A stretch of 63,035 bases of DNA, filler included, from Stramenopiles sp. TOSAG23-3 (GCA_900128585.1; 10 parts of 10 records of this genome joined end to end with filler, not necessarily neighbours in it); one strand, 5' to 3'. Shown: positions 5,639-61,864, counted from the whole stretch's first letter. The notes: generated from the letters alone by a model not told the origin. Program-made: numbers and translations.

Positions 5639-6385
5639 TTTTTAGCAGCCAAGCGTTCGTTCTTCTGTCCGTTCGACTGTTGAAAGTTTCCGTTGCTGTT
5701 CTAAATTTCACCTTCCGCAGTTGAGCCTACACTGTATTCAAGTTTAGTAAACATCAGGTTCTGGATTGTTCGGGGGGACTCTGCACAATAAATATTCGTC
5801 CGGGGAAGAAGTTTGTTCTTGTTTGTTTTTGGATTAATTATTATTTATTATTATTATTCATCCATCGTGATGATGATGGTGGTGAATCTGATGTTATTTG
5901 CATGTTCGTAGTTTGTTGGTTTTTTTTGTGTATTGGATTTTTTATTTATTAGAAATAGAAATTTTAAAATAGAAAGAGTCTAGCAGGTATTAATATTATT
6001 AATAAATAAATAAAAGAAGAAGAGAAGCAGTTGAAGCAATATCTTCTTCTTCTCGGTTTTTTTCTCCCTTGTTGTGTAGTGTTAATATTAATATCTATCA
6101 AGGAGGATGTTTATTTTACTTCTTCCTTTTCTTCCTTTCTTTCTTTCTTTCTTTCTTTCTTCTTTCTTTCTTCTTCTCCTCCCTCCGTCCCCTCAAATTA
6201 TTATTCATTCTCAAATTGAAAAGGTTTGTATATGTAATTTAATTTAAATAGTCGTCTAGTATAATGACTTACGGATTGAATAATTTTTGGATTTTGTCTT
6301 CTATCGACTGAGAACAGGGACATCGCATTTAAACGTGTAAAGAAAGAACCCCTGTCTACTAGGTGGGAGCCGTTGCCGGCCAAAA

Positions 6386-7481: not shown

Positions 7482-7581
7482 NNNNNNNNNNNNNNNNNNN
7501 NNNNNNNNNNNNNNNNNNNNNNNNNTTAATTAATTAANNNNNNNNNNNNNNNNNNNNNNNNNNNNNNNNNNNNNNNNNNNN
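7482..7581. other. Artificial contig linker
   Basis: N44-TTAATTAATTAA-N44, giving stops in all six frames. Confidence 0.98.
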
Positions 7582-15058: not shown

Positions 15059-15158
15059 NNNNNNNNNNNNNNNNNNNNNNNNNNNNNNNNNNNNNNNNNN
15101 NNTTAATTAATTAANNNNNNNNNNNNNNNNNNNNNNNNNNNNNNNNNNNNNNNNNNNN
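15059..15158. other. Artificial contig linker
   Basis: N44-TTAATTAATTAA-N44. Confidence 0.98.
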
Positions 15159-22635: not shown

Positions 22636-22735
22636 NNNNNNNNNNNNNNNNNNNNNNNNNNNNNNNNNNNNNNNNNNNNTTAATTAATTAANNNNNNNNN
22701 NNNNNNNNNNNNNNNNNNNNNNNNNNNNNNNNNNN
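22636..22735. other. Artificial contig linker
   Basis: N44-TTAATTAATTAA-N44. Confidence 0.98.
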
Positions 22736-22736
22736 A

Positions 22737-24038
22737 TTTATAGCACAGGCCGGTCAAGACAAGTATGTTGATTCCAAGTTTTCAGACAAAAAAGTAAACA
22801 CGGGAACATTCGTAGAATTTGGCGGGCTAAAGGGAGACGAATATAGCAACACTTTTTACTTTGAAAAAGCTTACAATTGGCGTGGAATAATGATAGAAGC
22901 CGAGAAAAAATATATCCCCCACTTAAAACAAGTTCGTGACGCGACCATTTACAACAATGCTGTTTGCCCATCGGGCATGAAAGAGGTTAAATTTGCATCG
23001 TCTAAGATTATGGGATGGAGTGGTATTGCCGACCATGTGGACGATCCAAGATGGACCAATAAAATCGATAAAATTGTAACCGTTCAGTGTGTCGATTTAA
23101 ACAATGTTTTGAAAGAGCAAAACATGTTTCATGTAGATTATATGACCGTAGACACAGAAGGTTCGGAGCTCGCCATCTTAAAAACTTTCGATTTTGATAC
23201 CTTTGATGTGACATTTGTACAGGTAGAACGTAATGTAAAGACAAAAGCACAACGTGATGAAAAAGACAGGCTTATACGGTTTATGAAAAGTAAAGGATAT
23301 GGACTAGAAAAGGTATTTAACATTGGAAACCAAGCAGTCGATGTTTTGTTTCGAAAAATTCCGAAATGGGTAGAGTTGTGGGGAAAGAAAGACAAGAACA
23401 AGTACGATACGGTTGCGAACATCATGAGAGAGTTGAACAGTGTTAACATTGACAGCTTTTTAATGGCTGGTTCAGCTTTAGGAGCGTACCGTAACCATGG
23501 TTGGTACCATTGGGACAAAGACGCGGATATCCTGCTCATGAGCATCGACTTGAAAAAAATTGAAGCAGCACTGAAGCGTCTAAAATTGAAACATAGCTAT
23601 ACTTCGTTTGGGTACCATGTCCACATCCCCGGAGTTACCACAGCAAAGCCGTACATTGATCTGTGGTTGTTTCAAGAGAAGAATAACAAAGTCAAATGTG
23701 TCGGGGCAGTGGGAACGAAGGAAAACTGCAACGACTTTTGCAGGGTAGTAGACAGAAGAGTTTGCAGTCCAATGCCAAAAAAATGGCTATACCCACCGCA
23801 ATGGGTGCCCTATGGACCATATCTTCTTCCGACGATACGCCAAGAATACGTGGATTGGAAGTATGGATCCAAGTGGATGACCCATTGTGGTAAAAAACCA
23901 TGCACCGCTTACTTTAAGACACAACAGTTCGTCTTCTTTGATGGTAATAAGGAAACTGTGAAGAAAAACAGCAAGGTTTTGCATACCTGTACAAAAATGA
24001 ATGGGAAGTACACGTGTATAAATAAAAGAGATAAATAA
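22737..24038 (+). CDS. FkbM-family methyltransferase fused to a LicD-family phosphotransferase, 5'-partial
   Basis: Frame open from the contig edge: AQAGQDKYV...GTFVEFGGLKGDEYSNTFYFEKAYNWRGIMIEAE and VDYMTVDTEGSELAIL (FkbM). Then AGSALGAYRNHGWYHWDKDADI, YIDLW and YVDWKYGSKW (LicD). Confidence 0.85.
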   Translation, partial: FIAQAGQDKYVDSKFSDKKVNTGTFVEFGGLKGDEYSNTFYFEKAYNWRGIMIEAEKKYIPHLKQVRDATIYNNAVCPSGMKEVKFASSKIMGWSGIADHVDDPRWTNKIDKIVTVQCVDLNNVLKEQNMFHVDYMTVDTEGSELAILKTFDFDTFDVTFVQVERNVKTKAQRDEKDRLIRFMKSKGYGLEKVFNIGNQAVDVLFRKIPKWVELWGKKDKNKYDTVANIMRELNSVNIDSFLMAGSALGAYRNHGWYHWDKDADILLMSIDLKKIEAALKRLKLKHSYTSFGYHVHIPGVTTAKPYIDLWLFQEKNNKVKCVGAVGTKENCNDFCRVVDRRVCSPMPKKWLYPPQWVPYGPYLLPTIRQEYVDWKYGSKWMTHCGKKPCTAYFKTQQFVFFDGNKETVKKNSKVLHTCTKMNGKYTCINKRDK

Positions 24039-24042
24039 TAAA

Positions 24043-24525
24043 ATGTATACCATTACCAGAACTATTATCCTCTTGTTTTCAGTATCAGTATGGCACGATT
24101 GTCGTCTCTACCATTGGTCTTTCTTTCTTGTAACCTTTTTACACTTTTTAGTCACTTTGGGACTGTTCTTTTATTATGAGAGGGTCCTATCCTATGTGTA
24201 TCCTCTGGTAACAACAGTGTTTGGGGCATTCATAATAATGTCTATCAAACCGTCCGAATGGCTATTTTCGTTCAAATGGACCGACTGTAGCGAAATGTAT
24301 GACAATAGCAATGTTATTGGACGAATATCAATGTTTAGTTATGCATTGTTGATGGCAAGTGCGTTGGAAATATTGGAACTGTCAACGGAAGAAAAACTTC
24401 TAGCATTTCCACCAAGAAGAAAATTGACGTTTAGTTGGAAACTATTTTGGATGCTAGTTGGGTTGGCTGTAATCATGTTCGCGATATGTGCCATTATGGT
24501 GGCTATTGCGGGGGGGTTTACTTGA
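24043..24525 (+). CDS. Small multi-pass membrane protein of unknown function (putative viral)
   Basis: 160 aa with about 5 hydrophobic segments; TATAAATA 18 nt upstream of the ATG. Confidence 0.65.
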   Translation: MYTITRTIILLFSVSVWHDCRLYHWSFFLVTFLHFLVTLGLFFYYERVLSYVYPLVTTVFGAFIIMSIKPSEWLFSFKWTDCSEMYDNSNVIGRISMFSYALLMASALEILELSTEEKLLAFPPRRKLTFSWKLFWMLVGLAVIMFAICAIMVAIAGGFT

Positions 24526-24946
24526 TTTTATTGATCGTAAATGTGTACCCATCGAACGACTTTTTCCACAGACATTTTAACGGCGGTATGTCTATAGGCA
24601 GACCATTTGGTACAGTTGTATGCACGTAGGTTAAGACGAGAATATCGCCAGATTTCCATAGTTGCGAACACAGTTGACTACCACCAATTATCCACGCATA
24701 TTTGTAATCTTTTATTTTATTAATATTAACTATGGTTTCTACACCCGGTACCTTTCTTCTTGATACAACTATATTTCTTCTGTTTGGAAGTGGTTTCTTT
24801 AAGGTATCCCAAGTTTTACGTCCCATTATGATTGTTTCGCCAAATGTATTCATTTTAAACCATTGGAAATCGTGCGATATCCTCCATGGTAATTTATTAC
24901 CTAAAGCGATTTTGTTATCGTCCGATACAGCTAGAATAAAACGCAT
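24518..24946 (-). CDS. dhfr: Dihydrofolate reductase (compact, stand-alone)
   Basis: IALGNKLPWRISHDFQWFK, IIMGRKTWDTL, PLPNRRNIVVSR, WIIGG and LTYVH. Confidence 0.92.
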   Translation of the reverse strand: MRFILAVSDDNKIALGNKLPWRISHDFQWFKMNTFGETIIMGRKTWDTLKKPLPNRRNIVVSRRKVPGVETIVNINKIKDYKYAWIIGGSQLCSQLWKSGDILVLTYVHTTVPNGLPIDIPPLKCLWKKSFDGYTFTINKIK

Positions 24947-24965
24947 TTAATAACTTCTTTTGCAG

Positions 24966-24973
24966 TATAAATA
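24966..24973. promoter_or_regulatory. TATA-like box between divergent DHFR and SNF2 genes
   Basis: TATAAATA, 19 nt from the DHFR ATG and 28 nt from the SNF2 ATG. Related boxes at 24017, 29040 and 30067. Confidence 0.55.
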
Positions 24974-25001
24974 GTCACAGATGGATAATTAATAATAATT
25001 A

Positions 25002-27929
25002 ATGCCAAGAAAGCCATTATTTAATACAAAATTTAAAGTGGGAACCCAAGTTATTTGGAATTCGACAGAATATTTCGTATCGGACATTAACCCAAATCAA
25101 CGGTTTGGACTCAAACTAAAACGTAGATTTCAACCATATCGTCACGCCACAACAGGTGTGCGTCCATGTAACGTTGAGAGAAACACAGAAGGCTTTCGGA
25201 GGAATTTACAGGTGGGAACGTGGCTGCTGTATGATGCGGACACCTTCAGTATACCAGCGATTGTAGTGAAACGTGAGATGGACACAATTGACCTACAACC
25301 ATTGCATGTACGCCACATTATTACCATATCTATATTTTCAAATCGAATAACAAAAACAGACCAAACCTTTCCAAATTATCAATTGCGCTGTTGCTGTTTG
25401 TCTAACAAATACATTCAAGCTCTGGCAAGCTACAGAGGGAGTTCGGGATATGTATTTGATTACGAGGGTATTGCCGAGAGGTACATGTTTATTCGACGTA
25501 ACGACATGACCTGTTTTTGGGTGAAAGAAAATGAACTGACGATACAGGCATTGAACCCAGATCCGTTCTGTGACAATTGGGCTACAGTTGGAGTAATGGA
25601 GATACCATTTCAAGACCTCTTTGTGGAATTAAAATCATCGTACTCAGCAAAATGTTTACCAGATCCGAATTCATTAAGACTCGATCTATGGTTCTTTTTG
25701 CACCAGTCCAACACGAGATGTCTTCGATCCAGTAACAAGGACATAGATGTTCTGGTGGACTTACTATGGCTTGAATTCCATTGGGCGTACTGGAAGAGAG
25801 AATTTAAGCCATGGTTCCTCGAATACGATTATGAATTGTACCAACATCAATCCGACACAAAATTGTTGAATTCCATCTCGGACGACTGCCTACCTTACAT
25901 AGCCGATAGATTGAATCGATCAATTCACGAAAGAAGAAGAGCCTTACGAGTAGAGAATTACATTACGGGCAAAAAGCTATTTAAAACATCCCTGTCTTAC
26001 CACGACAACAATCTCCGGGTGGTTATTCGTATTCCAGAGCATCCAACCCATCGCACTGTCAATCATTCTGGTTCATTCATATACGACTATGTGTGTAGAA
26101 TAATGACCCATTTGTCGGACATCCCCACAATTCTCAAGTCTCCAACTGGGACAATAGAAGTTCCCATGAAACTACCATTGAAAGACTTTCAAAAAGAAAT
26201 TGTTTTTGATATGTTTCAAAGAGAGAAGAACCCACGATATGTATTCGATATAAAAACAAAGATGGGTATGTCCTTCAACATTATAAGTGGCTTTGAGCAA
26301 CAAAAAAAATTCTACGGTGGTATTTTAGCCATCCGAACCGGCTATGGAAAAACCATTTGTACACTGGCGTTAATAGTAGGAAAACGCGTTCAACGCACTT
26401 TAGTTGTCGTACCATTGTCGCTCATGGACCAATGGATATCGGAAATAAAGAAGTTTACCTCCCTGACCGTCTCGGAGCTTTACAACTCAAAACGATATGT
26501 AACAGATAGCGACATTACCGTCACTACTTATGGAACATTGGCATCCATATACAGGGAGTCAGAGTACCATGATGTATTTATTCAATTTGACCGCGTTATT
26601 TTTGATGAGTCGCATACCATCAAAACATTTCATTGTAGTATTGCTAACGCATGCAAAGCTGTTGATGCCAAATACAAATGGTGTCTTACCGCAACTCCAT
26701 ATCGTAGGGGGATGGTCAAAAACCTAGCGACACAAATTAAAATGCTCGGAATAAAACCATTTCATACGAAGAGGTCACCATTTCATTTTGTGAACACGAA
26801 CTACACGGATCTTCCACGAACACGATATGTATTGGATGCTCTGAAAGACCTCGTTTTACAACCAACATTAGAAGTAGAGATACCACAACCGAAAGAGGTG
26901 CATAAGACGTTTGAATTGGATCAACACGAAAGAAAATTGTATGATGTACTCTACCAGAAAATAAAAGAAAAAATTGAAGAACTTTACCAATCCGAAACTC
27001 AAAACTACATGGTAATAAAGTCATTGATTAACAAGCTTTGTATATGCGCGAACGACCCATATCTATTGCCCTTATGGGAATATGGCGATCCATGTGACTC
27101 CGGAACTGTTGCGGTTGATGAATTGCAAAGCAGATTAAATACCACAACGTATCAAAAAGAAGTAAAGGAATCACTGAACAAGTTATCCGAAACTTCTTGT
27201 ACATTGTGTTTTGAAACAATAGAAAGACCTACTATTACACCGTGTCTCCATATGTTTTGCCGCGGTTGTATACATCGAGCATTGGAATACAGTTCAAAAT
27301 GCCCCGTATGTAGATCGACCATCGCGACAGACACCTTGGAAGAAATTACACCGAAATCGGAAGAGACGCTTGAAGATGGCAACATAATAGTATACGACTC
27401 GGTAGGAGGGAAACGAAAAGTGTCGGGAGACATTGCATCGGTGTACGACAGGAAGGGAGAGAGCAAACGTGTTCAATACTTGAAACAACTTCTTGAAAAG
27501 CGTAACAAAGTTGTTGTTTTCTCTCAATTTAATACGGTATTGAAATTCTATTCTTCCCTTTTCTCTTCATGTATAATCACAGGGAGAAGTACAAGAGCAC
27601 AAAGGAAAAAAAATTTGGAACGATTCAAAAGTGGGGAGTGTAAACTGTTCTTTTTGTCTACAAATGTTGCTAATGTGGGCTTAAATTTGGAAGAAGGAGA
27701 TACTTTAGTGTTTATTGACCCCGGGTTAGATGAAGCGAGAGAAGAACAGGCCATTGGACGATTGCTTAGGATAAACCAACGTAACAATATAGAGATACAT
27801 CGACTGGTTACATCGGATACAATTGCAGACAATGTAAAGAAGTGGAGAAGTCGGTACAACTTTCAGCAAGGAACACATACTGAAAAGAAAACAAGCTTTT
27901 TAACTTATGCATATAGATTAGTACATTAA
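25002..27929 (+). CDS. SNF2-family helicase with inserted C3HC4 RING finger (RAD5/HLTF-like architecture)
   Basis: GGILAIRTGYGKT, TLVVVPLSLMDQW, DESH, KWCLTATP; RING CTLC...PCLHMFCRGC...CPVCR; VVVFSQF, GLNL and QAIGRLLRINQ. Confidence 0.92.
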   Translation: MPRKPLFNTKFKVGTQVIWNSTEYFVSDINPNQRFGLKLKRRFQPYRHATTGVRPCNVERNTEGFRRNLQVGTWLLYDADTFSIPAIVVKREMDTIDLQPLHVRHIITISIFSNRITKTDQTFPNYQLRCCCLSNKYIQALASYRGSSGYVFDYEGIAERYMFIRRNDMTCFWVKENELTIQALNPDPFCDNWATVGVMEIPFQDLFVELKSSYSAKCLPDPNSLRLDLWFFLHQSNTRCLRSSNKDIDVLVDLLWLEFHWAYWKREFKPWFLEYDYELYQHQSDTKLLNSISDDCLPYIADRLNRSIHERRRALRVENYITGKKLFKTSLSYHDNNLRVVIRIPEHPTHRTVNHSGSFIYDYVCRIMTHLSDIPTILKSPTGTIEVPMKLPLKDFQKEIVFDMFQREKNPRYVFDIKTKMGMSFNIISGFEQQKKFYGGILAIRTGYGKTICTLALIVGKRVQRTLVVVPLSLMDQWISEIKKFTSLTVSELYNSKRYVTDSDITVTTYGTLASIYRESEYHDVFIQFDRVIFDESHTIKTFHCSIANACKAVDAKYKWCLTATPYRRGMVKNLATQIKMLGIKPFHTKRSPFHFVNTNYTDLPRTRYVLDALKDLVLQPTLEVEIPQPKEVHKTFELDQHERKLYDVLYQKIKEKIEELYQSETQNYMVIKSLINKLCICANDPYLLPLWEYGDPCDSGTVAVDELQSRLNTTTYQKEVKESLNKLSETSCTLCFETIERPTITPCLHMFCRGCIHRALEYSSKCPVCRSTIATDTLEEITPKSEETLEDGNIIVYDSVGGKRKVSGDIASVYDRKGESKRVQYLKQLLEKRNKVVVFSQFNTVLKFYSSLFSSCIITGRSTRAQRKKNLERFKSGECKLFFLSTNVANVGLNLEEGDTLVFIDPGLDEAREEQAIGRLLRINQRNNIEIHRLVTSDTIADNVKKWRSRYNFQQGTHTEKKTSFLTYAYRLVH

Positions 27930-29020
27930 TGAAATATTTTTCGTTTCTTTATCGCTCTTATTCCATTGAGCTTTAAATATTCCTCAAAACTTCCGTCAAA
28001 TTTTTCCCATTCAGATGTCTTTAGTTTTAAACGTAACACATCATTCACGAACCTTGCAATTATCTTTAACGGTAGCTTCCTCGTATTTAAGACATACTTC
28101 AGCATTTTCGATGGTCGCGTTTTAAACAACATACATGATATGGCCATAGCACTGTACATATTTTCCATTGTACATACTGTTTGGTCGAACAACATCAGCC
28201 CATGTGATAAACAACGGTGCTCTTCAGGAAATCTACTGTAAAATTCCATGAAAAACCCCTGTCGTTGATCTGTGAATGGTACGTCTGTTTTTATCTCTGA
28301 CGGTGTAATCTTATAGTTGCATTTTGTCTTTAACTCTTGTAGTGCACGCGTGGTATCCCATCTTTCCGTTGAATTTTCTTTTAACAGACCTTTGATAAGC
28401 TTGTCTAATGTGGTATCCTCTGGCAAGTGTGCAACACATTTGCGAATTTCTGGTAATGTTTTGCCCGGTACGTCACCATACAACATTTGGTGTAAGATAC
28501 ATCCAACCGACCACATGTCTACTTTCTCCGTATACCGCTGTTTCATCCAAATCTCCGGGGCACGGTACCACCTTGTCACCATGTAGCCAGTAGCTTCACC
28601 GTAATCGTTTGCATACTGGCGGGAAAGACCAAAGTCACAGAGCAAGATCTTTCCATTTTTAATCAGCACGTTGTCTGGCTTTAGATCCCTATGCATGACA
28701 TTGTTCTTGTGCATTGCAGACAGACCCAGTAGCATTTGTTTACCATACATCATTATTTTTTTGTACGACAACCCTTTCATTTGTTTTCGCAAGGTAGACT
28801 CTGCCAAAGTCAACTCTACATGCATACAGTTCCATTTGTAGTAAAAACTATGAATAGGAACACAGTAGGGAAGACGCATCTGCAAAACATGATATTCCCG
28901 AACCACAGATATTAAGTCTTGTTGACCTTTTATTTCGGTAATCTTCAACGCATTATTATTGTGGCGGTATACTTTTGCATACACGCCCTCTCCCAGCAAT
29001 TTGGACTGTGTAGAACTCAT
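27926..29020 (-). CDS. CMGC (MAPK/CDK-like) Ser/Thr kinase with a putative cyclin-like C-terminal domain
   Basis: LGEGVYAKVY, ALK, HRDLKPDN, DFGLSR, TGYMVTRWYRAPE and DMWSVGC; KKRK at the C-terminus. Confidence 0.9.
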   Translation of the reverse strand: MSSTQSKLLGEGVYAKVYRHNNNALKITEIKGQQDLISVVREYHVLQMRLPYCVPIHSFYYKWNCMHVELTLAESTLRKQMKGLSYKKIMMYGKQMLLGLSAMHKNNVMHRDLKPDNVLIKNGKILLCDFGLSRQYANDYGEATGYMVTRWYRAPEIWMKQRYTEKVDMWSVGCILHQMLYGDVPGKTLPEIRKCVAHLPEDTTLDKLIKGLLKENSTERWDTTRALQELKTKCNYKITPSEIKTDVPFTDQRQGFFMEFYSRFPEEHRCLSHGLMLFDQTVCTMENMYSAMAISCMLFKTRPSKMLKYVLNTRKLPLKIIARFVNDVLRLKLKTSEWEKFDGSFEEYLKLNGIRAIKKRKIFH

Positions 29021-29568
29021 TTTGAGGTACTTTCATTTATATATATACTCATAATCTTCGGCCATTCCACTTCATTTAAAGTAGCAGCTATTTCTTCTTC
29101 GTATATGGTCGGTGTAGTCACTATGTAGGTAGACATTTTACGCAAATCACTAGCAGTGGTACTTGCAAGTATGTTTAACTGTCTAGGAACACTTTTGTGA
29201 AGTTCTATTAAAGTTAAGGCCTTTTCGTGCGTGATATTAAAAAATTCAATTATTTTTGTAGTATCAATAACCATCGCTTCGGTAACATTCATATGCTGCT
29301 TGTTCCATTTAAAAAATACCGTAATGGTATTACATGTACCCGTACCAAGCACAATCTCAGCGTATCGAATAAGATCGAAATGCATCCCACCTTGACCCTT
29401 CTTCAATTCTATGTAGCTGGTACCGTCGAACGCATCGTAATATCGATTATCGATTGCTTTCCAGTCCAGTACACTACAAAAATGTTTCTCGTAAGCATTT
29501 TTAGGAATAACAAATTCTCCATACAACTTACTAAAGTTATTTTGTATTTTATCTTTTATTTGCAACAT
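29017..29568 (-). CDS. Putative PD-(D/E)XK nuclease-like protein
   Basis: YEKHFC...RYYDAFDGTSYIELKKG gives an E...D...ExK pattern. Likely start at 29568; the track's 29637 start overlaps the neighbouring gene. Confidence 0.45.
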   Translation of the reverse strand: MLQIKDKIQNNFSKLYGEFVIPKNAYEKHFCSVLDWKAIDNRYYDAFDGTSYIELKKGQGGMHFDLIRYAEIVLGTGTCNTITVFFKWNKQHMNVTEAMVIDTTKIIEFFNITHEKALTLIELHKSVPRQLNILASTTASDLRKMSTYIVTTPTIYEEEIAATLNEVEWPKIMSIYINESTSK

Positions 29569-29585
29569 TTTACCTAAAATCACTG

Positions 29586-29906
29586 ATGTCGAAAGAATAC
29601 TTTCCCCTTGGGGGCCACATGCACGATTTTCTTCCATGGAATATGGACGAATTGGAAAACTGGAAAGACAACGCTCTTCTTAAAATCTGGTGGAACATGA
29701 AAATTCAGGATCAAGGAGCAAGCGCTCTATTCATCAAAGGACCTACTTCGTATTCGGCATACCACAGAGATGCGGATCTTCTTCATCGACTGTGTGATGT
29801 AGATTACACTGGTGGATACGTAGCACACTGCGAATTCCCAATAGATAGACTCGAGGAATTTTCGGGACAAATCAAGGCGGCTGGCTACTCAGTACGGACT
29901 CTTTAG
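29586..29906 (+). CDS. Stand-alone MutS domain I (MSH6-type mismatch-recognition domain), degenerate
   Basis: WWNMK...ALFIKGPTSYSAYHRDADLL...YTGGYVAHCEFP...FSGQIKAAGYSV aligns by eye with MSH6 WWQIK...YKVGKFYELYHMDA.IG...FMKG..AHSGFP...YSDSLVQKGYKV. Confidence 0.7.
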   Translation: MSKEYFPLGGHMHDFLPWNMDELENWKDNALLKIWWNMKIQDQGASALFIKGPTSYSAYHRDADLLHRLCDVDYTGGYVAHCEFPIDRLEEFSGQIKAAGYSVRTL

Positions 29907-30048
29907 GCTTTTCCCATGTCTCGCCAGACGCCAATTGATCTTGCCACCAAGTTTCTTTCTCTTCTGCTTCGGCATGCTCATGCGGCAACACATTTTTTCG
30001 TTTTGTCCAAATCTTAGGGTTTTTAATAGAAAAGAATCTACGCAACAT
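29872..30048 (-). CDS. 58-aa micro-protein with a WW-like motif and presequence-like N-terminus
   Basis: Below the track cut-off. My translation: MLRRFFSIKNPKIWTKRKNVLPHEHAEAEEKETWWQDQLASGETWEKPKESVLSSQPP*. TATAAATA lies 18 nt upstream on the same strand. Confidence 0.55.
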   Translation of the reverse strand: MLRRFFSIKNPKIWTKRKNVLPHEHAEAEEKETWWQDQLASGETWEKPKESVLSSQPP

Positions 30049-30211
30049 TTACTAAATCCATATGTATATTTATATTAGAGATTCATTAATTAAAACCCTA
30101 TCAAATGGAAAATCCCTACTTAATAAAAAAATCGAATACAAACGTAGTAGATGCTCTGTATATGAGGACTACATGGTACAGTGGGAACTACCCATACCCC
30201 CCTCTTCCATT

Positions 30212-30311
30212 NNNNNNNNNNNNNNNNNNNNNNNNNNNNNNNNNNNNNNNNNNNNTTAATTAATTAANNNNNNNNNNNNNNNNNNNNNNNNNNNNNNNNN
30301 NNNNNNNNNNN
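30212..30311. other. Artificial contig linker
   Basis: N44-TTAATTAATTAA-N44; the next contig starts with a poly-A run. Confidence 0.98.
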
Positions 30312-37785: not shown

Positions 37786-37885
37786 NNNNNNNNNNNNNNN
37801 NNNNNNNNNNNNNNNNNNNNNNNNNNNNNTTAATTAATTAANNNNNNNNNNNNNNNNNNNNNNNNNNNNNNNNNNNNNNNNNNNN
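37786..37885. other. Artificial contig linker
   Basis: N44-TTAATTAATTAA-N44. Confidence 0.98.
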
Positions 37886-45358: not shown

Positions 45359-45458
45359 NNNNNNNNNNNNNNNNNNNNNNNNNNNNNNNNNNNNNNNNNN
45401 NNTTAATTAATTAANNNNNNNNNNNNNNNNNNNNNNNNNNNNNNNNNNNNNNNNNNNN
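45359..45458. other. Artificial contig linker
   Basis: N44-TTAATTAATTAA-N44. Confidence 0.98.
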
Positions 45459-52926: not shown

Positions 52927-53026
52927 NNNNNNNNNNNNNNNNNNNNNNNNNNNNNNNNNNNNNNNNNNNNTTAATTAATTAANNNNNNNNNNNNNNNNNN
53001 NNNNNNNNNNNNNNNNNNNNNNNNNN
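52927..53026. other. Artificial contig linker
   Basis: N44-TTAATTAATTAA-N44. Confidence 0.98.
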
Positions 53027-60492: not shown

Positions 60493-60592
60493 NNNNNNNN
60501 NNNNNNNNNNNNNNNNNNNNNNNNNNNNNNNNNNNNTTAATTAATTAANNNNNNNNNNNNNNNNNNNNNNNNNNNNNNNNNNNNNNNNNNNN
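60493..60592. other. Artificial contig linker
   Basis: N44-TTAATTAATTAA-N44. Confidence 0.98.
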
Positions 60593-61764: not shown

Positions 61765-61864
61765 NNNNNNNNNNNNNNNNNNNNNNNNNNNNNNNNNNNN
61801 NNNNNNNNTTAATTAATTAANNNNNNNNNNNNNNNNNNNNNNNNNNNNNNNNNNNNNNNNNNNN
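61765..61864. other. Artificial contig linker
   Basis: N44-TTAATTAATTAA-N44. Confidence 0.98.

What the first reader, a model, noticed from the sequence alone, without database searches (positions are those of the whole stretch)
29586..29906. Stand-alone MSH6-type mismatch-recognition domain with the Phe-X-Glu sensor erased
Seen: a complete 106-aa ORF that aligns by eye with domain I of eukaryotic MSH6 (WW..K, YHxDA, AHCxFP, GYxV) and stops right after it, with no ATPase. Known: the GKFYE Phe and Glu contact the mismatched base, and giant-virus MutS7/8 are full-length ATPases. Here that motif reads GPTSYS. Inference: a captured mini-MutS domain repurposed as a DNA-binding adaptor or as a decoy of host MutS-alpha.
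Basis: partly seen in the sequence, partly recalled or inferred. Interest (0 to 1): 0.72.

Follow-up and report, generated by a model that had tools for sequence, protein, structure and literature searches.

The report
Giant-virus stand-alone MSH6 mismatch-domain protein
An uncultured marine giant virus carries a small, well-conserved gene that encodes only the mismatch-reading domain of the cell's MSH6 repair protein, with the two mismatch-sensing residues replaced, so it probably serves viral DNA replication or repair in some way other than reading mismatches.

Summary
ORF 29586-29906 (+, 106 aa) is intact, passes Pfam MutS_I above its curated cut-off, is closest to human MSH6 by profile, and its model overlays MSH6 domain I at 1.4-1.5 A. 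It is not a broken MutS. It is intact in 7 of 7 DNA versions, dN/dS is about 0.1-0.2, and no other MutS piece lies nearby.

New findings:
- It lies on a 7.5-kb viral contig (family-B polymerase and Erv1 follow in a longer relative) joined to eukaryote-like contigs.
- It belongs to an undescribed family of 98-179-aa proteins on large marine virus contigs. All stop at the same point inside domain I (Pfam position about 81 of 113).
- 26 of 31 members keep Phe-X-Glu. Only this clade reads Ser-Tyr/Cys-Ser. The loss is derived and followed fast change: 28% identity to the counterpart in a virus whose polymerase is 71% identical.
- In two distant lineages the gene sits between the viral polymerase gene and the same 183-248-aa neighbour, which has a nuclease-like E...D...ExK pattern (a lead only).

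Best reading: a captured MSH6 domain that works without an ATPase as an adaptor in a polymerase-linked DNA module and no longer reads mismatches. A decoy of host MutS-alpha remains a live rival. Function is untested.

The parts
29586..29906 (+). Complete 106-aa ORF (stop codon included): stand-alone, C-terminally shortened MSH6-type mismatch-binding domain
   Evidence: ORF list; Pfam MutS_I E=3e-05, above cut-off; profile against PDB is best to MSH6; Foldseek; intact in 7 of 7 DNA versions; dN/dS 0.09-0.48
29610..29624 (+). Codons of G9-G-H11-M-H13: the Gly-x-His-x-His motif that precedes the domain
   Evidence: G9, H11 and H13 are invariant in all 29 rows of alignment A2, including four MSH6-like eukaryote-type rows. 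The motif is absent from the L012 member. Model confidence here is low, pLDDT 57-65. Role unknown.
29676..29897 (+). Residues 31-104: the stretch matched by Pfam MutS_I (profile positions 3-81 of 113)
   Evidence: Model elements H30-41, E46-51, E55-59, H60-70, E81-85, H86-98, E102-105.
29748..29756 (+). Codons of S55-Y56-S57, in the columns of the MSH6 Phe-Tyr-Glu mismatch sensor
   Evidence: Alignments; motif table (5 of 31 members read S-Y/C-S, 26 of 31 read F-[YFH]-E)
29790..29882 (+). Residues 69-99, which align with the human MSH6 positions reported to touch the MSH2 mismatch domain (446-448, 468-476)
   Evidence: My own mapping. It uses the alignment (chain index 94 = F432) and the residue list in PMC9943660. 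No contact was tested here.
29017..29568 (-). Divergent neighbour gene, 183 aa from Met24 of the listed 206-aa ORF; conserved partner candidate with an E...D...ExK pattern
   Evidence: ORF. The N-terminal 23 residues are poorly conserved while the rest is 91-93% identical across clades. A 42%-identical homologue lies directly after the mini gene in L012. ESM Atlas: 5 of 30 look-alike clusters carry the ThaI restriction-endonuclease family, a lead only. No Pfam, PDB, PHROG or convincing PADLOC match.

Best explanation
This is a real gene of an uncultured marine large DNA virus (Nucleocytoviricota-like). It encodes only the core of an MSH6-type mismatch-binding domain plus the short Gly-x-His-x-His segment that precedes that domain in some eukaryotic MSH6 proteins. 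It has no connector, clamp or ATPase. It belongs to a family of about 100-180-aa viral proteins that were most likely captured once from a eukaryotic MSH6 and that all end at the same point inside domain I. The ancestral state kept the Phe-X-Glu mismatch wedge. The window's clade replaced both residues with serine during a burst of change and has been under purifying selection since. It therefore cannot read mismatches in the canonical way but still does something useful. The mechanism I commit to is inferred, not shown. The protein is a non-enzymatic recognition or docking subunit of a small viral DNA replication/repair module. That module is made of the family-B DNA polymerase gene and a conserved 183-248-aa neighbour that may be a PD-(D/E)xK-type nuclease. 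In relatives the mini-domain would bring mismatched or distorted DNA to that module. In this clade it has been retuned to another DNA feature or to the protein partner alone.
For: SHOWN.
- Intact ORF and MutS_I membership. It is MSH6-type by profile and by fold.
- 7 of 7 DNA versions are intact at 106-109 aa. dN/dS for the window against L003-L006 is 0.13, 0.19, 0.10 and 0.12 at dS 0.15-0.42.
- The stretch or part of it is held by 20 of 24 listed public runs from 12 studies; 2 of those rows may be the source sample.
- Family size: 8 short relatives among the 14 hits of an exhaustive search of 1.84 billion representatives, and 22 short proteins by profile search. All end at the same column.
- 26 of 31 members keep F-[YFH]-E; 5 of 31 read S-Y/C-S. 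The S-x-S clade is monophyletic (support 100/99) on a stem of 1.76 changes per column and is nested among F-x-E members.
- Relative rate: the polymerase of the window's virus (as L002) is 71% identical to that of the L009 virus, but the mini-proteins are only 28% identical. The L009-type and L012-type mini-proteins are 45% identical, close to the 46% polymerase identity measured between the L002 and L012 viruses; the L009-L012 polymerase pair itself was not compared.
- Viral context: PolB, Erv1/ALR, GIY-YIG, SNF2+RING and a Ser/Thr kinase.
- Gene neighbourhood. In the window's virus the order is neighbour(-), 17 nt, mini(+), 1101 nt, PolB(+). In L012 it is PolB(+), about 20 nt, mini(+), 27 nt, neighbour homologue(+), which is 42% identical at E=8e-42.

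INFERRED.
- Capture from a eukaryotic MSH6.
- The nuclease nature of the neighbour, from a by-eye E27...D45...E54-x-K56 pattern conserved in 4 of 4 aligned homologues and from 5 of 30 ESM Atlas look-alike clusters with the ThaI family.
- Any physical contact.
Against: - No binding or activity was tested.
- The polymerase and neighbour adjacency holds in only 2 of 4 lineages with context. In the L009/L021 type the mini gene is about 39 kb from PolB, and the neighbour family is absent from both 84-kb contig fragments. In L010/L011 the gene lies in a terminal inverted repeat.
- The two adjacent lineages are related (PolB 46% identical), so inherited synteny explains part of the adjacency.
- The neighbour has no Pfam, PDB, PHROG or convincing PADLOC match, and its structure model failed at pLDDT 40.6.
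- The protein is acidic (pI 5.4, net charge -5) and the family is neutral to mildly acidic, which is not what a generic DNA binder looks like.
- In full MutS proteins, tight DNA binding needs the clamp domains (established knowledge, recalled), so an isolated domain I may bind DNA weakly.
Confidence: 0.45

Rival explanations
1. Decoy or dominant-negative of host MutS-alpha. The viral copy of the MSH6 mismatch-binding domain competes with the host's own. In Phe-X-Glu relatives it would sit on mismatches or heteroduplex DNA without being able to signal repair. In this Ser-x-Ser clade it would instead occupy a protein surface, for example the MSH2 mismatch-domain face that locks onto the MSH6 domain. 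Either way, mismatch repair or anti-recombination on viral DNA is blunted.
For: - Origin from eukaryotic MSH6 and lack of every signalling domain.
- Residues 69-71 and 91-99 align with the human MSH6 positions (446-448, 468, 469, 471, 472, 475, 476) that form the MSH2-MSH6 mismatch-domain 'safety lock' interface. They lie in the confident part of the model (alignment, model, passages of PMC9943660).
- Precedent by analogy: small stand-alone MutS_I proteins (Msl) accompany some diversity-generating retroelements (PMC5758913, passages). Knocking out host mutS raised that mutagenesis 5-10-fold in Bacteroides (bioRxiv 10.1101/2024.11.15.621889, passages).
Against: - No binding evidence.
[quoted passage not shown] A competitor acting in trans against a contact inside one complex would be weak.
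- MutL homologues are recruited through the Msh2 connector and the Msh6 ATPase/core domains, not domain I (PMC9639671, abstract read), so that route is closed.
- Loss of Phe and Glu removes the DNA-level decoy route in this clade.
- The rival does not explain the link to the polymerase and neighbour genes.
Confidence: 0.25
2. Split MutS. The mini-protein supplies domain I in trans to a viral or host MutS-type ATPase that lacks its own mismatch domain.
For: All members lack the last strand pair of domain I and so leave an open sheet edge that another chain could complete (inference). Giant viruses encode other MutS types, MutS7 and MutS8 (PMC3749498 and PMC3166940, passages).
Against: No MutS_V match on 0 of 3 giant-virus contigs that carry a family member, although these are fragments estimated 8-36% complete. 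No other MutS piece in 17 kb around the gene. The mini-domain is MSH6-type, not MutS7-type: 16% identity to Tetraselmis virus MutS7 in BFVD against 27-29% to human MSH6. MutS7 already has its own domain I.
Confidence: 0.05
3. Decaying remnant of a once full-length MutS gene, or an assembly artefact.
For: The ORF is short, ends inside the Pfam domain, and its C-terminal residues differ between strains (...VRTL...RIMI...RTYVKK).
Against: It is intact in 7 of 7 DNA versions, with dN/dS well below 1. Distant family members at 27-46% identity share the same start and end. No MutS remnants lie downstream. The stretch is found in runs of 12 studies.
Confidence: 0.02

Closest known systems
Mismatch-binding domain (domain I, MBD6) of eukaryotic MSH6, e.g. 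human MSH6 in PDB 2o8b and 8ag6
   Same: Best profile match (E=4.7e-14) and best fold match (rmsd 1.4-1.5 A over 74 columns, 27-29% identity). It shares the W..K helix, the H-x-D-A helix start and the A-H-x-x-F-P loop. It also shares the upstream G-x-H-x-H segment with some eukaryote-type MSH6 proteins.
   Different: It stands alone at 106 aa. It lacks the last about 30 residues of the domain and all of domains II-V. The Phe and Glu of the sensor are both Ser, and the Gly of the G-F-P loop is Glu.
Msl (MutS-like) accessory proteins of diversity-generating retroelements (PMC5758913; Pfam PF01624 per PMC10053308)
   Same: Small (112-283 aa), roughly neutral, stand-alone MutS_I-type proteins encoded next to a polymerase gene in mobile or viral elements, with unknown function (passages).
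   Different: Msl proteins are bacterial or phage proteins found with a reverse transcriptase, template repeat and avd. Here the domain is MSH6-type, in a virus of eukaryotes, next to a family-B DNA polymerase. No reverse transcriptase was seen among the neighbours scanned. The Msl sequences are in supplements I could not open, so no direct comparison was made.
Stand-alone 'MutS domain I' ORFs of phages and a few giant viruses in UniProt/BFVD and the ESM Atlas (e.g. A0A8S5PL02, 74 aa, Myoviridae sp.; A0A1V0SJ64, 135 aa, Klosneuvirus KNV1)
   Same: Same fold as a free-standing small protein (TM-score normalised to the target up to 0.86). 29 of 30 ESM Atlas look-alike clusters are 84-94-aa MutS_I proteins, mostly from tailed phages. 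A phage example in hand, L017 (86 aa), ends at nearly the same profile position, 85 of 113.
   Different: Only 14-19% identical. The phage examples I could read, L015 and L017, are of the bacterial MutS type and keep Phe-X-Glu. The window's family is a separate, MSH6-derived lineage.
MutS7 of Mimiviridae-like viruses and octocoral mitochondria (domains I, III, V plus HNH nuclease)
   Same: A viral mismatch-recognition domain coupled to a nuclease. Here the possible coupling is to a separate neighbour gene.
   Different: MutS7 is one long ATPase chain with the sensor Phe conserved (PMC3166940, passages). This protein has no ATPase, is not MutS7-like in sequence, and the nuclease nature of its neighbour is unproven.

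Membership tests
Pfam MutS_I (PF01624) homologous domain | Profile score above the curated gathering cut-off | tested here: met
   24.7 bits against a cut-off of 20.6, E=3e-05. Relatives score 30-45 bits.
Pfam MutS_I (PF01624) homologous domain | Domain I fold | tested here: met
   The model (pLDDT 82.7) matches MSH6, MutS and MSH3 domain I, with probability 1.00 for all listed hits and rmsd 1.4-1.5 A to MSH6.
Pfam MutS_I (PF01624) homologous domain | Whole domain present (113 profile positions, including the last strand pair) | tested here: not met
   The match ends at profile position 81 of 113 at the protein's C-terminus. The same holds in relatives (78-83 of 113).
Functional mismatch sensor of MutS/MSH6 type | Phe-X-Glu motif (human MSH6 F432 stacks on the mismatch; the Glu numbering is recalled) | tested here: not met
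   S55-Y56-S57 in those columns. F432 is from PMC9943660. The role of the Glu is recalled; the titles of the E. coli E38 mutant structures listed point the same way.
MutS family protein proper (MutS1, MSH2-6, MutS7/8) | Domain V ABC ATPase and core/clamp domains in the same chain | tested here: not met
   The protein is 106 aa. tblastn with a full-length relative finds nothing beyond domain I in the window or in L001-L006.
DGR Msl accessory proteins | Encoded in a cassette with a DGR reverse transcriptase, template repeat and usually avd | tested here: not met
   Pfam scans of the neighbouring ORFs show SNF2/RING, kinase, PolB, Erv1 and GIY-YIG, and no reverse transcriptase or avd. Template and variable repeats were not searched for.
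New viral mini-MSH6-domain family (defined here) | 98-179 aa; MSH6-type domain I core ending at the 'GY..x.I' strand; on large eukaryotic-virus contigs | tested here: met
   Alignments A1 and A2; tree; contexts L002, L009, L010, L012.
PD-(D/E)xK nucleases (for the 183-aa neighbour) | Profile or fold match plus an E...D...(D/E)xK catalytic pattern | tested here: inconclusive
   The pattern E27, D45, E54-L-K56 is conserved in 4 of 4 homologues (read by eye). 5 of 30 ESM Atlas look-alike clusters are ThaI-family. There is no Pfam, PDB or PHROG match and the model is unusable at pLDDT 40.6.

The most novel reading that the evidence does not exclude
Giant viruses of this group carry a minimal, ATPase-free DNA-surveillance module split over adjacent genes. 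An MSH6-derived recognition domain works with a PD-(D/E)xK-type nuclease next to the viral DNA polymerase gene. This would be a stripped-down, two-protein counterpart of the self-contained MutS7-HNH and MSH1-GIY-YIG enzymes. In the window's clade the recognition domain has been retargeted by swapping the Phe and Glu wedge for serines.
Probability: 0.15. Interest if true: 0.8.

Novelty: new variant of a known kind. Interest (0 to 1): 0.6.

Why it matters
Mismatch recognition by MutS proteins is thought to need the whole ATP-driven clamp. Here, viruses of eukaryotes have kept only the first 75-80 residues of the MSH6 recognition domain as a free protein. Tailed phages did the same independently with the bacterial domain. 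This recurrence suggests that the domain core has a useful activity of its own that nobody has measured. The family offers a natural experiment: close relatives with and without Phe-X-Glu, under purifying selection. It also gives a concrete hypothesis to test, a polymerase-linked module with a candidate nuclease or, alternatively, interference with host mismatch repair. I found no paper describing the family. The searches were over the held open-access and bioRxiv library only.

Tried and rejected
- Homodimer prediction for the mini-protein: no verdict. I draw nothing from it.
- AlphaFold model of the 206-aa neighbour from a 4-row alignment: mean pLDDT 40.6, unusable. I did not run a fold search on it.
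- RNA libraries (contigs only). One 151-nt contig of an oligo-dT run covers 29568-29718 with 7 differences, and others cover the neighbour and the kinase. This shows presence in RNA libraries, not transcription. Parts without cover mean nothing.
- Mimivirus-type early promoter word AAAATTGA (recalled from memory) in L002: 6 matches against 2.96 expected, and 16 of 200 shuffles reach 6. All matches lie inside genes, so it is not informative.
- Search for the NCLDV capsid family on two IMG/VR contigs: no match, but the control rang nowhere, so it is uninformative.
- L007 and L008 are bacterial succinate-dehydrogenase loci hit by a chance peptide pattern. P0023 and P0027 are repetitive proteins hit by chance. 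L016 is an ordinary bacterial MutS N-terminus. All were dropped.
- Scans that found nothing: viral contigs with the window protein, with P0022 and with neighbour alignment A6. Neighbour alignment A7 found only the L012 contig again. Prokaryote genomes with A7 gave nothing.
- Longer-protein word search: 0 of 60 candidates.
- I read two ORFs as HNH endonucleases by eye (L002 14943-15614 and L010 5385-5912). Pfam does not support this, so I make no claim.
- PADLOC AbiEi at E=0.01 for the neighbour: too weak to use.
- Earlier findings of this scan: nothing on this genome or protein.

Full report
1. WHAT THE WINDOW IS

The 63,035-base window is not one stretch of genome. It holds ten pieces joined by spacers of 44 N, TTAATTAATTAA and 44 N. 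The piece lengths are 7481, 7477, 7477, 7476, 7474, 7473, 7468, 7466, 1172 and 1171 bases, so these look like separate contigs sorted by size. The finding lies in the piece 22736-30211. Other pieces carry eukaryote-type genes: Ndc80/HEC, WD40, MFS sugar transporter, GH20 hexosaminidase and NIPA.

The finding's piece is tightly packed with genes:
- an FkbM/LicD fragment;
- an SNF2-plus-RING helicase of 975 aa;
- a Ser/Thr kinase of 364 aa;
- a 206-aa ORF of unknown family;
- the 106-aa ORF in question.

This piece is 99.4-100% identical to two marine metagenome contigs, L001 and L002, and about 84% identical to two others, L005 and L006. L002 runs on for 7 kb beyond the window's contig end. It shows a 1013-aa family-B DNA polymerase, an Erv1/ALR thiol oxidase and a GIY-YIG protein downstream, and a Ras-like GTPase, a SET-like protein and DHFR upstream. 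The last three are read by eye from the translations. This is the gene content of a large DNA virus of eukaryotes. I could not name the lineage, because no taxon names came back and the capsid search was uninformative. Whether the virus was infecting, eaten by, or merely co-assembled with the eukaryote cannot be told from a contig that is viral from end to end.

2. THE OBSERVATION

The ORF 29586-29906 (+) is as described.
- Pfam MutS_I matches at E=3e-05, 24.7 bits against a cut-off of 20.6, with residues 31-104 on profile positions 3-81 of 113.
- Single-sequence phmmer against PDB sequences found nothing.
- A profile of 11 family members hits human MSH6 first (E=4.7e-14, 55.8 bits), then E. 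coli MutS (29.9 bits at best), then MSH3 (20.8 bits).
- The AlphaFold model has mean pLDDT 82.7 and pTM 0.73. Residues 1-30 are weak at 57-65, and the rest is above 83.
- In Foldseek against PDB every listed hit is a MutS-family domain I. The best are human MSH6 chains at rmsd 1.4-1.5 A over 74 columns and 27-29% identity.
- In the alignments the MSH6 Phe-Tyr-Glu columns read Ser55-Tyr56-Ser57. That F432 of human MSH6 stacks on the mismatch is stated in PMC9943660 (passage). The Glu role is recalled; the E. coli E38 mutant structures listed point the same way.

3. NOT A BROKEN MutS

- The ORF is intact in 7 of 7 DNA versions (window, L001-L006), at 106, 108 or 109 aa.
- Nei-Gojobori dN/dS for the window against L003, L004, L005 and L006 is 0.13, 0.19, 0.10 and 0.12, at dS 0.15-0.42. 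Over the 18 of 21 pairs with dS of at least 0.15 it ranges from 0.09 to 0.48.
- tblastn with a full-length MSH6-like protein (P0033, which has Pfam domains I, III, IV and V) and three MSH6-like fragments finds only the domain I stretch in the window and in L001-L006. That includes the 7 kb downstream in L002.
- The stretch or part of it is held by 20 of 24 listed public runs from 12 studies; 2 of those rows may be the source sample.

4. A FAMILY

An exhaustive phmmer search of 1.84 billion representatives gave 14 hits at E<=0.001:
- 8 short proteins of 98-171 aa, the closest being P0022 (104 aa, 46% identical);
- 4 MSH6-like proteins or fragments;
- 2 repetitive proteins that I take as chance hits.

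A profile search among proteins of 53-300 aa gave 22 short proteins. 20 of them already carry PF01624, and the two without it are the window's own clusters. Only one row has a source name, 'DNA mismatch repair ATPase MutS'. A word search among longer proteins found none of 60 candidates.

All short members end at the same alignment column. G9, H11, H13, W35, K39, H60, D62, D64 and P85 are invariant in all 29 aligned rows, including the MSH6-like rows. The member on L012 lacks the G-x-H-x-H segment.

Family members lie on IMG/VR contigs of large viruses:
- L009 and L021 (84-kb contigs, with a histone-fold gene nearby);
- L010/L011 (both ends of a 122.6-kb contig, inside a terminal inverted repeat that is identical for at least 3139 nt);
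- L012 (35.5-kb contig).

No MutS ATPase domain was found on 0 of 3 such giant-virus contigs, but these are fragments estimated 8-36% complete.

5. THE ERASED SENSOR IS A DERIVED, LINEAGE-SPECIFIC STATE

Of 31 short members tabulated, 26 keep F-[YFH]-E. The other 5 read S-Y/C-S: the window, P0002, P0021, P0007 and P0022.

In a maximum-likelihood tree the five form one clade (support 100/99) on a stem of 1.76 changes per column. This clade is sister (93/92) to the L009-type clade. The MSH6-like rows form their own clade elsewhere. The tree is short (118 columns), has several long branches and is rooted only at the midpoint.

Relative rates make the same point:
- The polymerases of the window's virus (as L002) and of the L009 virus are 71% identical, yet their mini-proteins are 28% identical.
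- The L009-type and L012-type mini-proteins are 45% identical. The polymerases of the L002 and L012 viruses are 46% identical; the L009-L012 polymerase pair itself was not compared.

So the mini-protein changed unusually fast on the branch leading to the window's clade. It lost Phe, Glu and the Gly of the G-F-P loop, and then settled under purifying selection. The clade is also the most acidic, with pI 5.2-6.2 against 6.0-9.3 for the rest.

6. GENE NEIGHBOURHOOD

In the window's virus the gene lies 17 nt from a divergent neighbour. I count the neighbour from its Met24 at 29568. The first 23 codons of the listed 206-aa ORF overlap the mini gene and are poorly conserved, while the rest is 91-93% identical between clades. 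The gene also lies 1101 nt upstream of the polymerase gene on the same strand.

In L012 the order is polymerase, about 20 nt, mini gene, 27 nt, then a 248-aa ORF whose last 145 residues are 42% identical to the window's neighbour at E=8e-42. Two lineages that differ as much as 46% in polymerase therefore keep the mini gene between the polymerase gene and the same neighbour family, although order and strand have changed.

In the other two lineages this does not hold. In the L009 type the polymerase gene is about 39 kb away, and the neighbour family is absent from both 84-kb fragments. In L010 the gene sits in the terminal repeat.

The neighbour has no Pfam, PDB-sequence, PHROG or convincing PADLOC match, and its model failed. 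Two leads point to a PD-(D/E)xK nuclease:
- the pattern E27...D45...E54-L-K56 is conserved in 4 of 4 homologues (read by eye);
- 5 of 30 ESM Atlas look-alike clusters carry the ThaI restriction-endonuclease family.

7. WHAT IS KNOWN

Viral MutS proteins described so far (MutS7, MutS8, MSH1-like) are long ATPases (passages of PMC3749498, PMC3166940 and PMC12292046). Ogata et al. 2011 I did not see; it is cited through those papers.

Free-standing MutS_I proteins do exist but are unstudied:
- The Msl accessory proteins of diversity-generating retroelements occur in 16 of 372 elements. They are 112-283 aa, with pI about 7.2 (PMC5758913, passages). They are assigned to PF01624 in PMC10053308 (one passage).
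- BFVD holds phage ORFs of 74-153 aa named 'MutS domain I' or 'DNA mismatch repair protein', a 135-aa Klosneuvirus protein and a 254-aa Hyperionvirus RING protein. All are 14-19% identical to the query.
- 29 of 30 ESM Atlas look-alike clusters are 84-94-aa MutS_I proteins, mostly from tailed phages.
- Two phage examples turned up in my own scans: an 86-aa free domain (L017) and a 655-aa ParB-MutS_I fusion (L015). They end at profile positions 85 and 90 of 113.

So viruses of bacteria and of eukaryotes have independently kept about the same core of domain I as a free module. I found no paper on the MSH6-derived viral family. The searches were made, and the library holds open-access papers and bioRxiv only.

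8. HOW IT MOST LIKELY WORKS

Shown: identity, family, conservation, loss of the sensor and the neighbourhood. Everything about mechanism is inferred.

My preferred reading (0.45) is an ATPase-free recognition or docking subunit of a polymerase-linked viral DNA module that includes the neighbour protein. In this clade it has been retuned away from mismatch reading.

The main rival (0.25) is interference with host MutS-alpha. The literature offers one route that needs no Phe-X-Glu. PMC9943660 describes a 'safety lock' contact between the MSH2 and MSH6 mismatch domains, using MSH6 residues 446-448, 468, 469, 471, 472, 475 and 476 (passages). By the alignment these map to residues 69-71 and 91-99 of the viral protein, in its confidently modelled part. 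The same paper reports that losing the lock only lowers affinity. MutL homologues are recruited through other domains (PMC9639671, abstract), so such a decoy would be weak.

A split-MutS role (0.05) and a relic (0.02) are unlikely for the reasons given in sections 3 and 4.

9. VERDICT

The case is a new, MSH6-derived, eukaryotic-virus variant of the little-known class of stand-alone MutS domain I proteins, and the window's clade is a sensor-less offshoot of it. Interest 0.6.

Noticed in passing
window 7482-7581, 15059-15158, 22636-22735, 30212-30311, 37786-37885, 45359-45458, 52927-53026, 60493-60592, 61765-61864: The window is ten separate pieces joined by spacers of 44 N, TTAATTAATTAA and 44 N. 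Piece lengths fall from 7481 to 7466 and then to 1172 and 1171, as for contigs sorted by size. One piece is viral and the others look eukaryotic (Ndc80, WD40, MFS, GH20, NIPA).
   Followed up: partly
window 30097-30185 (= L002 10512-10600), with its partner at L002 10785-10873: An 89-nt inverted repeat (84% complementary) flanks a poly-T/poly-A stretch just after the gene. The window's contig and the contigs of L001, L005 and L006 all end 180-305 nt after the ORF stop, so this structure seems to break assemblies. Only L002 reads through, to the polymerase gene.
   Followed up: partly
L010 and L011 (both ends of one 122.6-kb IMG/VR contig), gene at 5974-6303 of each locus: A family member that keeps Phe-X-Glu lies about 600-900 nt from each contig end, inside a terminal inverted repeat identical for at least 3139 nt. 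That virus therefore carries two copies.
   Followed up: partly
L015 1683-3650: A phage contig encodes a 655-aa fusion of ParB N-terminal and HTH domains with a C-terminal bacterial-type MutS domain I (Pfam E=1.2e-28, profile positions 3-90 of 113). L017 6013-6273 is an 86-aa free-standing bacterial-type MutS domain I.
   Followed up: partly
L009 2200-2511: The virus with the L009-type mini-protein encodes a 103-aa histone-fold protein (Pfam Histone E=2.5e-24). An IscA/HesB-like ORF (read by eye) and a 2OG-oxygenase-like ORF (read by eye) lie beside the mini gene.
   Followed up: no
window 29610-29624 and the same columns in P0029, P0032, P0033, P0034: A Gly-x-His-x-His-[Asn/Asp] segment is invariant in the viral mini-proteins aligned and also sits just upstream of domain I in some eukaryote-type MSH6 proteins. 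In those proteins about 30-40 residues lie between the motif and the domain, and the viral proteins lack them. I know of no function for this motif.
   Followed up: partly
window 25002-27929: A 975-aa protein joins an SNF2-family helicase to a C3HC4 RING finger inserted between the helicase lobes, a Rad5/Rad16-like layout (recalled). Its stop overlaps the stop of the convergent kinase gene (27926-29020).
   Followed up: no
window 29586-29637: The first 52 nt of the mini gene overlap the listed start of the 206-aa ORF on the other strand. Conservation suggests that the neighbour really starts at Met24 (29568), which leaves a 17-nt divergent spacer that must hold both promoters or lie within them.
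   Followed up: partly
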